A DNA stretch of 64,000 nucleotides. It comes from the human T2T-CHM13v2.0 reference genome, Homo sapiens. Below, piece after piece: positions 39,701 to 42,700 of the stretch (its first letter is position 1; each line of letters starts with the position of its first letter). The position numbers and the translations under genes were made by a program. Under the pieces are notes generated by a model. The model was not told the origin of the DNA and made no database searches. It saw nothing but the letters and a program-made list of their open reading frames with translations. The stretch lies in assembly GCF_009914755.1 (NCBI RefSeq), contig NC_060938.1, one strand, 5' to 3'.

Positions 39701-42700
39701 CTCCTGGGTTCAAGTGATTCTCCTGCCTCAGCCTTCCAAGTAGCTGGGATTACAGGTATGTGCCACCAAGCCTGGCTAATTTTGTATTTTTAGTAGAGAT
39801 AGGGTTTCTCCATGTTGGTCAGGCTGGTCTCAAACTCCCGACCTCAGGTGATCCGCCTGCCTCATCCTTCCAAAGTGCTGGGATTACAGGTGTGAGCTAC
39901 CACACCCAGCATAAATTCTCTCTTAATGATGACTTGAAGGCTGCTACTCCATGGGAGAATCAGTAGAACCTGTAGGATCTTATTTGGAATTGACATTCTC
40001 TATTGTAATTTTGTTTATTTTAAATTTGTTTTTTGTTTCACTGGAAAGATGATGTTCAATTTTAAAAGTTGAAAGTGTACAAGTTGCTTTGTTACAGTAA
40101 AACTAAATATGTACACACAAACACACACAGACAGAAATAAAACAAAGTATTATGAGAACAGCCTGTAATCCCAACACCCAGTGATAACTACAGTTTACAT
40201 TTTAGTGTCTATAAGAGTTAATATAATATCTATAAGGTTAACACTTACAGATTCCCGAAGGTACCCCTGCCCAGCGACATCATATAAACTGAGTCCTATT
40301 CTTGTTTGATGAAGCCAAACTGACAATAAACAAGAAAATGAAAGTAATTCTTAAGATCTATCCTTCAGATATGAAAAAGGAGATAAAGAGCCAGATTTGA
40401 GACAAGCTAATCTAGTAACTCTAAAAACATTTCTTCTCACCACAAAATTGCTTGAAACAAAAAACCATAGAATGGAAGAGTTCAACAATTCTACCATGAC
40501 TAAAGCTATAATAAAATTGACGCCTTGAAGATACTGTTCTTTACCAATTAAACTTGGTGTTCCACCAAACAGGGACAGCTAGTATAATATTATGCCTTCA
40601 GTGAAGCTGCTTTTATTTCTGAGGTTAATTACAGCAACCAATTATTAAAGATTGTATACAATAGGCTTTCACAGATTATTATGGCACTTGTAGGAATCAT
40701 AAGTCCAAGCTGTTTAATTGATGCTCCTTGAAACTGATATTACAGCTTTGGGTTTGAAACTATCCTTTCAGTCAACTCAACTTGTAATATACTGGTAAAA
40801 TAAAATTATCAGTAAATTAAAATTATTTCAAATTACCATACATTAAAACTCTTGGTTCAGCTCTTAATATTTCTAGTCTACTATTATCTTTAAGACACAT
40901 GAGGGTTTAAAAAATTTTTGTTTTTTTATGCTAACCCAAGTTTATGTAACACATCTTGGTCAAAAGATAAGAAATTCTACTATTCAAACTTAGAGTGATT
41001 TCACATAGAAGAAATACTTATAAAAGCACAGACCAAAAACCTACTTGATTCCCAGATAAGGAGTTCAAGCACAGTAAAAATGAATCACCTTTTCTCATGA
41101 CATAATTAAAGAACTGCATGATGGAAATTCTTCCATATGAATCTGTATGAAGGAGTTTAGCAAAGACTTTTGCTGTGAAAAATTGCCTAAGAAAAGAAAA
41201 TAAAGATTTAAATGATCTGCCAACATAAAAGAAAATGACTTCTACATAAATTAGCAAACAATGGCATAAATTCATACAATTAAAAATGAAAGAACAATAG
41301 AGACTCCTTATAATTCAAAAACTTAAAATATTAAGTCAAACTTTTTTTTTTTTTTAAAAGAAATGGAGATTTGGCCAGGCGCAGTGGCTCTTGCCTGTAA
41401 TCCCAGCACTTTGGGAGGCTGAGGCAGGCACATCATGAGTCAAGAGATCGAGACCATTTTGGCCAACATGGTGAAACCCCGTCTCTAGTAAAAATACAAA
41501 AAGTATTTGTATTGGGTATTTATATTGTATTATATTGTATTTATGTTGGCCCAGCCAATATTTGAGGCATTTAAAATGCTTAACATATTCTTTTGTTAAT
41601 ACAATAATACTTGGGAGGCTGAGGCAGGAGAATCACTTGAACCCAGGAGGCGGAGGTTATAGTGAGCTGAGATTGCGCCACTCCCCTGCAGCCTAGCGAC
41701 AGAGCAAGACTCCATCTCAAAAAAAAAGATAAATATATATATATAAACAGAGATTTGCTCTGTTGCCCTGACTGATCTCGAACTCCTGGCCTCAAGTGAT
41801 CCACCTGCCTTGGCCTCCCAAAGCACTGGAATTACAAACGTGAGGCACCATGCCTAGCCTAAGTCATAAATGTTTGCATTCTTTTTTTTTTTAATTAAAA
41901 GTTTTTTTTATTTTGCAGAGATGGGCACGTGAGCCACAGTGCCTGGCCTTGCATTCTTTTTTGTTTGCTTTCGTCTGTCTTAAGGCTGAAAGTGTCATAA
42001 ACTATATTATTTCTTTTTTTTTTTTGAGATGGAGTCTTGCTCTTTTGCCAAGCTGGAGTGCAGTGGCACGATCTCGGCTCACTGCAACCTCCGCCTCCAG
42101 GGTTCAAGCGATTCTCCTGCCTCAGCCTCCTGAGTAGCTGGGATTACAGGCACACGCCACCACGCCCAGCTAATTTTTGTATTTTTAGTAGAGACGGGGT
42201 TTCACCATGTTGGTCAGGATGGTCTTGTTCTCTTGACCTCGTGATCCGCTCACCTCAGCCTCCCAAAGTGCTGGGATTACAGGCATGAGCCACCACACCT
42301 GGCTATATTATTTATTTTAATAACTTCATACCAATGTGATTTTTTGACTGTAAATAATTTTATTAAATTTAATTAGTAACTTAAATGGACTCAAATGTCA
42401 TTCCATTTACTTCATTTAATATTTGAGGATTTGTTTATTTTTTTTAAAGGTAAGGTCTTGCTCTATCGCCCAGGCTGGAGTGCAGTGGCTTAATCACAGC
42501 TCATCCTCCCGGGCTCAAGCAATTCTCCCACCTCAGCCTCTGGAGTAGCTACAGGTGTACGCCCCCACACCCAGATAATTTTTTTAGTAGAGACAAGATC
42601 TCCCTAAGTTGCCCAGGCTGGCCTCAAACACCCCAGCTCAAGCAATCCTCTCACCTCAGCCTCCAAAACTGCTGGGATTACAGGTGTGAGCCACTGTGCC

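What the first reader, a model, noticed from the sequence alone, without database searches (positions are those of the whole stretch)
41500..41610. Alu core replaced by fold-back filler plus a templated copy of sequence beside exon 4
Seen: in the Alu at about 41372-41727, roughly 40 nt of consensus after the A-rich linker is replaced by about 105 nt. The replacement is snap-back and iterated filler (aatacaaa..tttgtatt, tatattgtat x2) followed by 41549-41600, which copies 42698-42754 (39/39 exact, a 5-nt gap, then attcttttgttaat). The source ends 14 nt from the exon 4 donor boundary. Together with the insert at 44985, three copied fragments come from one 800-bp zone (42698-43486) and landed on both sides of it. 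Inference: polymerase theta-mediated end-joining scar; the exon 3-4 zone may be a preferred template (R-loop or nascent RNA).
Basis: partly seen in the sequence, partly recalled or inferred. Interest (0 to 1): 0.7.

Follow-up and report, generated by a model that had tools for sequence, protein, structure and literature searches.

The report
DNA-break repair scar inside an Alu
Inside an Alu repeat in a human intron, 37 bases are replaced by 106 bases copied from the adjacent DNA and from a spot 1.1 kb away, likely the scar of error-prone repair of an ancestral DNA break, which is a known kind of mutation.

Summary
The Alu at 41372-41727 lacks 37 nt after its linker and carries 106 nt instead (41503-41608): fold-back copies of the left flank (32 of 49 nt; 0 of 20,000 shuffles), a 52-nt direct copy of 42698-42754 (found at only these two places in the genome search) and a fold-back tail. 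Copying ran from 42698 into the Alu, likely after the Alu had inserted. This is a multi-template insertion of a known kind. The filler is typical of polymerase theta; the 1.1-kb jump is not, so the enzyme is inferred. The 'preferred exon 3-4 template' idea is weak. The 14-nt distance to exon 4 is chance-level (P 0.07-0.14). The second scar starts with a 7-mer found nearby only at the two ends of intron 3. A third scar copies non-exonic DNA, and a similar cluster lies 35 kb upstream. Two leads remain. Both long-copy scars used the minus strand, which one ~2-kb resection would explain. The second scar planted the splice donor of a RefSeq alternative exon plus an in-frame ATG. No ape sequence was available for dating.

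The parts
41372..41502 (+). Host Alu, left arm and A-rich linker (AluS-type; the subfamily label AluSc is recalled, not from a call); left break end at 41502
   Evidence: Alignment to window Alu majority; non-CpG divergence 6 of 98
41461..41469 (+). Fold-back template for the last filler piece (41543-41551), which supplies the 3-nt microhomology into the distant template
   Evidence: 9-nt inverted match
41503..41548 (+). Filler of iterated inverted copies of the linker (41492-41500) and of itself
   Evidence: 32 of 49 nt (41503-41551) covered by the reverse complement of the left 60 nt, 0 of 20,000 shuffles; 0 nt by the three other flank orientations
41549..41600 (+). 52-nt direct copy of 42698-42754, 5 nt shorter than the source
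   Evidence: 39/39 and 14/14 exact; two places genome-wide
41597..41611 (+). Fold-back tail copied from the new filler, ending in the 3-nt (up to 5-nt) microhomology that rejoins the Alu right arm at 41609
   Evidence: Inverted matches to 41523-41532, 41527-41533 and 41501-41507
41609..41727 (+). Host Alu right arm and tail
   Evidence: non-CpG divergence 6 of 86
42698..42754 (+). Source of the long copy: last 8 nt of an old reverse Alu head plus unique intron 4 flank
   Evidence: Old Alu 42430-42707 differs at 54 of 272 positions from the window majority and runs on into the source
42860..42876 (+). Source B of the second scar (PPP2R3C exon 4, nt 6-22); stops 2 nt before the shared 7-mer at 42879
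   Evidence: 17/17
43467..43486 (+). Source A of the second scar (last 12 nt of exon 3 plus 8 nt of its donor)
   Evidence: 20/20
44985..45039 (+). Second scar at the 3' end of an LTR that lacks its last ~3 nt: copy A, copy B, then a re-copy of their junction. On the minus strand it gives a donor at 44993 and an in-frame ATG at 45022
   Evidence: the RefSeq exon 44993-45815 ends at the copied donor (annotation given with the finding)

Best explanation
A 37-nt piece of this Alu is replaced by fold-back copies of the left flank and a 52-nt copy of DNA 1.1 kb to the right, likely because a germline double-strand break here was repaired by repeated microhomology-primed synthesis from the left 3' end. 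Inferred steps: (1) a break after the Alu had aged, with both ends resected; (2) the left plus-strand end folded back several times on the linker and on 41461-41469; (3) the new end paired by about 3 nt with the minus strand at 42698, exposed by more than 1.1 kb of resection on the right or by strand invasion, and copied 52 nt; (4) it folded back on its own filler, made a 3-5-nt microhomology and joined the right arm at 41609. Polymerase theta is the likeliest enzyme for the fold-back rounds (about 0.55). The distant step may have been theta on a long resected tail or a break-induced-replication-type switch.
For: Shown: all filler templates are inverted and on the left within 45 nt, and the long template is direct and on the right. 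This is the geometry described for theta: hairpin-primed inverted copies and copies primed on the other resected end (PMC7165422, passages). Microhomologies lie at entry and exit. The copy is younger than the Alu: 0-1 mismatches in 52 nt against 4.4-6.8 expected if coeval (P(0) 0.001-0.012; P(<=1) 0.009-0.067). Literature: theta stem-loop synthesis creates new microhomologies in vitro (PMC11292364, abstract and section 12). Human meiotic-break variants show template switching and an excess of sizes within ~2 kb of resection (PMC7615360, passages). Multi-template germline insertions numbered 33 and 26 in two people (PMC8421209, section 10).
Against: The 39-52-nt tract and 1.1-kb distance lie outside the usual theta range (templates within about 20-30 nt, tracts rarely over 10 nt, distal under 0.1%). 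The entry microhomology is only 3 nt and occurs 43 times in the 2.5 kb to the right, so the choice of site is unexplained. Fold-back insertions also arise in yeast through Pol delta plus NHEJ (PMC11724301, passages), and Pol eta and lambda extend stem-loops too. No orthologue was seen, so the ancestral state rests on other Alus.
Confidence: 0.62

Rival explanations
1. Replication template switching (FoSTeS/MMBIR): a collapsed fork end folded back, invaded duplex DNA 1.1 kb ahead, copied 52 nt and returned 37 nt downstream, with no second resected end.
For: The long distant tract and mixed orientations match the 'complex' germline class. The second scar needs a minus-strand template on its left, which a simple resected end does not offer. 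Theta itself promotes mitotic MM-BIR (PMC13065848, passages), so the two models overlap.
Against: At least six 7-12-nt fold-back or iteration pieces lie within 45 nt of the break, the hallmark of aborted end-joining synthesis. No copy-number change of the flanks is visible in the window.
Confidence: 0.22
2. R-loop- or RNA-guided templates: the sense (minus) strand around exons 3-4 was exposed by transcription, or the pre-mRNA itself was reverse transcribed into the breaks.
For: All three long templates are the sense strand of PPP2R3C, primed from the plus strand (the priming strand of scar 2 is only modestly supported, 501 of 20,000 shuffles). A and B sit at the two ends of intron 3, about 2-3% each by random placement. 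Reverse-transcribed patches are described (PMC5110952, passages).
Against: No spliced junction is in either insert, and A crosses the unspliced donor. The fold-back-made 6-mer has 3 direct sites within 2.5 kb, and the 7-mer has 2, both at intron 3 ends. Scar 1's proximity is chance-level. The zone is 38-39% GC without unusual skew. The third scar is inverted and 1,050 nt from an exon edge. The window was picked after the fact from a genome-wide scan.
Confidence: 0.09
3. The insert was made while the Alu was being reverse transcribed and integrated (template jumping by L1 ORF2p or host repair).
For: In the flanking control three templated copies sit at the start, inside and at the end of a single Alu (L039 4402-4774), so such copies can be tied to Alu integration.
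Against: Copy and source are too alike for the Alu's age. Fold-back templates lie on the left, which fits plus-strand priming, whereas first-strand cDNA runs the other way (established knowledge of target-primed reverse transcription).
Confidence: 0.05
4. Assembly artefact or change private to the sequenced cell line.
For: No second haplotype or species was seen, and the near-zero divergence is compatible with a very recent origin.
Against: The ordered fold-back anatomy is not a typical assembly error. The donor created by scar 2 ends a RefSeq exon.
Confidence: 0.02

Closest known systems
[quoted passage not shown]
   Same: Deletion with insertion; inverted fold-back copies from the priming end and a direct copy from the other side; several rounds; short priming and resolving microhomologies.
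   Different: One tract is 39-52 nt and its template lies 1.1 kb away; the described templates lie within about 20-30 nt and tracts are mostly under 10 nt.
Complex MMB-TI germline variants (MMBIR-like; PMC8421209, section 10 part 1 and passages)
   Same: Several templates in both orientations, joined by microhomology, without gross rearrangement; 26-33 such variants per person against the reference.
   Different: Here the event is in the reference itself, and most of its pieces are very short fold-backs.
Class 2 templated sequence insertion polymorphisms (PMC5110952, passages)
   Same: No target-site duplication or poly(A); microdeletion and microhomology at the junctions; donor left intact.
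   Different: The donor is local, not distant; polymorphism and RNA origin are not shown.
Short-range template-switch mutations in ape genomes (PMC5453318, PMC7954356; search listing only)
   Same: Fixed or segregating complex mutations explained by copying nearby sequence.
   Different: By their listings and recall these are short-range, mainly inverted single switches; this scar adds iteration and a kilobase-range direct copy.

Membership tests
Theta-mediated end-joining templated insertion | Deletion with insertion at one junction | tested here: met
   37 nt lost, 106 nt gained
Theta-mediated end-joining templated insertion | Inverted (fold-back) copies of sequence close to the break | tested here: met
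   32 of 49 filler nt from the left 60 nt, 0 of 20,000 shuffles; 9 of 2,121 other 60-nt stretches of the window cover as much
Theta-mediated end-joining templated insertion | Repeated rounds that create the next microhomology | tested here: met
   Iterated 12-mer, tail copied from the filler, 9-mer bridging into the long copy
Theta-mediated end-joining templated insertion | 2-6-nt priming and resolving microhomologies | tested here: met
   3 nt at entry, 3-5 nt at exit
Theta-mediated end-joining templated insertion | Templates within about 30 nt and tracts mostly 10 nt or less | tested here: not met
   Met by the filler, not by the 52-nt copy from 1,149 nt away
Theta-mediated end-joining templated insertion | Dependence on POLQ | not testable with these tools
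   Fixed ancestral event
Complex MMBIR-type templated insertion | Two or more templates, mixed orientation, microhomology at the switches | tested here: met
   class described
Complex MMBIR-type templated insertion | Origin at a one-ended break with strand invasion | not testable with these tools
   Cannot be read from one product
Class 2 TSIP (RNA patch) | No target-site duplication or poly(A), donor intact | tested here: met
Class 2 TSIP (RNA patch) | Donor in a distant genomic region | tested here: not met
   Donor 1.1 kb away
Class 2 TSIP (RNA patch) | RNA origin (for example a spliced junction) | tested here: inconclusive
   Templates are sense-strand, but no spliced junction is present
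Class 2 TSIP (RNA patch) | Polymorphic among people | not testable with these tools
   Only one assembly is held

The most novel reading that the evidence does not exclude
Two germline breaks 3.5 kb apart were patched in one event from the sense strand of PPP2R3C exposed at its splice sites (pre-mRNA copied by a repair polymerase, or an R-loop). The patch planted a working 5' splice site and an in-frame start codon, creating a primate-lineage PPP2R3C isoform with a new 10-residue N-terminus. The milder part, one event with a shared ~2-kb resected DNA tail and no RNA role, has about 0.3.
Probability: 0.06. Interest if true: 0.8.

Novelty: new member of a known kind. Interest (0 to 1): 0.3.

Why it matters
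As it stands, this is a clear worked example of a known mutational process, with nearly every base traceable. It matters a little more because template distances of 1-2 kb match meiotic resection lengths, not the 20-30 nt seen at engineered breaks, and because such scars came in clusters in both places examined. If the two scars prove to be one event, they would record a two-break repair with kilobase resection. If the donor and ATG made by the second scar are used, break repair would have built an exon end and isoform start in a gene tied to gonadal dysgenesis and spermatogenesis (PMC8679844, search listing).

Tried and rejected
An 11-nt inverted match of the filler end to 41219-41229 (near the exon 5 acceptor) was dropped: 8 of 117 other 2-kb stretches and 6,819 of 20,000 resampled fillers match as well, and a closer 9-nt template exists. 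An 8-nt match of scar 2 to the exon 4 donor (42759-42766) was dropped, since equally long matches occur at non-exonic sites. A spliced-mRNA template was rejected: no exon 3-4 junction is in the insert. 'Known repeat' was rejected: two places genome-wide. Dating scar 2 through annotated proteins failed: 0 of the 120 listed hits (of 283) carry its N-terminal peptide; clustering at 90% could hide such an isoform. No hypermutation asymmetry: left arm 6 of 98, right arm 6 of 86. The background control is limited to 200 kb next to the window, in 10-kb tiles that lose pairs across tile edges; no genome-wide rate was obtained. Earlier scan findings were not seen. Searches for PPP2R3C with exon/testis/transcript (20 of 22,592 listed) and with LTR/alternative promoter/isoform (15 of 493 listed) showed no paper on these inserts; no supplements were read, and variant tables there could hold them.

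Full report
Observation. The Alu at 41372-41727 aligns to a majority sequence of 48 other Alus of the window up to the end of its A-rich linker (41502) and again from 41609. The 37 nt between are missing and 106 nt stand in their place. Of these, 41549-41587 equals 42698-42736 (39/39) and 41587-41600 equals 42741-42754 (14/14). A genome search with the source gave two places of two candidates, source and copy (40 of 75 candidates scored). The gap lies at a 5-nt tandem unit of the source, so it can also be a slip plus one substitution.

Direction and age. The source begins in the last 8 nt of the head of an old reverse Alu (54 of 272 positions off the majority) and runs into unique intron 4 DNA. 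The copy holds only those 8 nt, inside a younger Alu that has no such sequence in other copies. Copying therefore ran from 42698 into the Alu. The host Alu differs at 12 of 184 non-CpG, non-variable positions; the median of the other 48 is 4.2%. If the copy were as old as the Alu, 4.4-6.8 mismatches would be expected in 52 nt; 0 or 1 are seen (P(0) 0.001-0.012, P(<=1) 0.009-0.067). The 95% upper bound on copy-source divergence is 5.8-9.1%. The scar is likely younger than the Alu, but no closer date is possible without apes. The label AluSc is recalled.

Anatomy of the filler. The reverse complement of the 60 nt left of the break covers 32 of 49 filler bases; 0 of 20,000 shuffles do as well, and the direct-left, inverted-right and direct-right flanks cover none. 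Nine of 2,121 other 60-nt stretches of the window cover as much. The pieces come from the linker (41492-41500) and from 41461-41469, whose 9-nt copy ends in the 3 nt shared with the start of the distant template. The tail is copied back from the new filler (41597-41606 against 41523-41532) and ends in the 3-5 nt shared with the right arm. So the primer was the left plus-strand end, and the distant template was the minus strand on the right. That strand is the one a resected right end exposes (inference).

Which pathway. Hairpin-primed inverted copies, direct copies primed on the other end, and repeated rounds that make new microhomology are the described theta signature (PMC7165422, passages; PMC11292364, abstract and section 12). 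The same sources limit templates to about 20-30 nt from the break, with tracts rarely over 10 nt and distal templates under 0.1%. The 52-nt copy from 1,149 nt away fails that feature. It fits the complex multi-template germline class (33 and 26 events in two people; PMC8421209) and the ~2-kb resection range with template switching reported for human meiotic breaks (PMC7615360, passages). Yeast makes fold-back insertions with Pol delta and NHEJ (PMC11724301, passages), and theta also drives mitotic MM-BIR (PMC13065848, passages). The scar works like iterative microhomology-primed repair; membership in theta-mediated end joining is not shown.

The second scar. The LTR match to 40 scored copies ends at about 44987, and several of 11 inspected copies run on about 3 nt further, so a few terminal bases were replaced by about 52 nt: copy A (43467-43486), copy B (42860-42876) and a re-copy of their junction. 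The LTR end can fold back on 44969-44975 to give the first 7 nt of the junction, and a 9-mer at 45026-45034 is an inverted copy of 44965-44973. This support is modest (501 of 20,000 shuffles). If right, the primer was again the plus strand, and A and B came from the minus strand on the left, which a simple resected end lacks.

Is the exon 3-4 zone a preferred template? For the finding's own scar the 14-nt distance to exon 4 arises by chance in 7-14% of placements. A and B are each at about 2-3%, jointly near 5 in 10,000, but picked after the fact. There is a sequence reason: the 6-mer at the start of scar 2 has three direct sites within 2.5 kb and the 7-mer has two, at the exon 3 donor and the exon 4 acceptor, and B stops 2 nt short of the second site. 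No spliced junction is present. The zone is 38-39% GC with skew of -0.04 to -0.12, weaker than several neighbouring stretches. A third scar at 47603-47627 copies, inverted, DNA 1,050 nt from the nearest exon edge.

Background. A scan of the window and twenty flanking 10-kb tiles for exact copies of 17 nt or more at 0.1-5 kb gave 39 rows, 11 without flank homology. Two are Alu target-site duplications and one is an ambiguous self-complementary 20-mer; these were dropped. Of the 8 left, 4 are the window's three scars and 4 lie within 5.5 kb in one tile, L039, just past SRP54. Five shuffled windows gave none. Such scars are thus not rare here and come in clusters, also away from exons. The sample is small and tiles lose pairs across edges.

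One-event model (inference, about 0.3). If breaks formed together at about 41503 and 44988, resection of about 2 kb rightward from the first would expose the minus strand from 41609 to beyond 43486. All three long templates lie on that tail, and both primers are plus-strand ends. This explains 'one zone, landing on both sides' without RNA. It predicts that both scars arose on one branch. Upper bounds on divergence (5.8-9.1% and 8.1-12.5%) allow this but do not show it.

A side result. On the transcribed strand scar 2 gives a donor identical to that of exon 3, exactly at the end of the RefSeq exon 44993-45815, and an ATG at 45022 that opens 10 codons in frame with exon 3. Against use as a start: 19 other ATGs precede it in the annotated exon, the annotation gives this exon no coding part, and 0 of 120 listed proteins (of 283 hits) carry the peptide.

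Verdict. A real, well-resolved templated insertion of a known kind. Polymerase theta is plausible but unproven, and the preferred-template idea has little support. Two literature searches on PPP2R3C listed nothing on these inserts; supplements were not read.

Noticed in passing
window 44993-45022 (minus strand): The second scar creates both the splice donor at which the RefSeq alternative exon 44993-45815 ends and an ATG ten codons upstream, in frame with PPP2R3C exon 3; 19 other ATGs precede it and no listed protein carries the peptide.
   Followed up: partly
window 47603-47639 and 48483-48507: Third scar: a 25/25 inverted copy from 880 nt to the right plus an iterated 11-mer, in the tail of a reverse Alu monomer just before an AluS insertion.
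   Followed up: partly
L039 4402-4774 (C14:29224001-29234000, just past SRP54): One Alu carries three inverted templated copies (17, 24 and 26 nt, from 0.6-2.7 kb away) at its start, inside and after its tail, which may point to copying tied to Alu integration.
   Followed up: partly
L039 8379-8557, 8722-8745 and 9801-10000: A near-identical local duplication of LTR-like sequence whose junction with a truncated Alu holds a 24-nt copy from a second site.
   Followed up: no
window 42879-42885 and 43467-43473: The two ends of PPP2R3C intron 3 share a 7-nt word (donor +2 to +8; acceptor -4 to +3), and the exon 3 and exon 4 donors differ by one base over 8 nt.
   Followed up: yes
window 36535-36597 and 37232-37295: An older local duplication about 698 nt apart, outside Alu-masked sequence.
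   Followed up: no
window 27086-27102 and 45347-45363: A 17-nt exact match 18 kb apart, spanning an Alu end and its flank at the second site; may be chance.
   Followed up: no
window 41728-41748: The 3' target-site duplication of the host Alu appears interrupted by a TA microsatellite.
   Followed up: no
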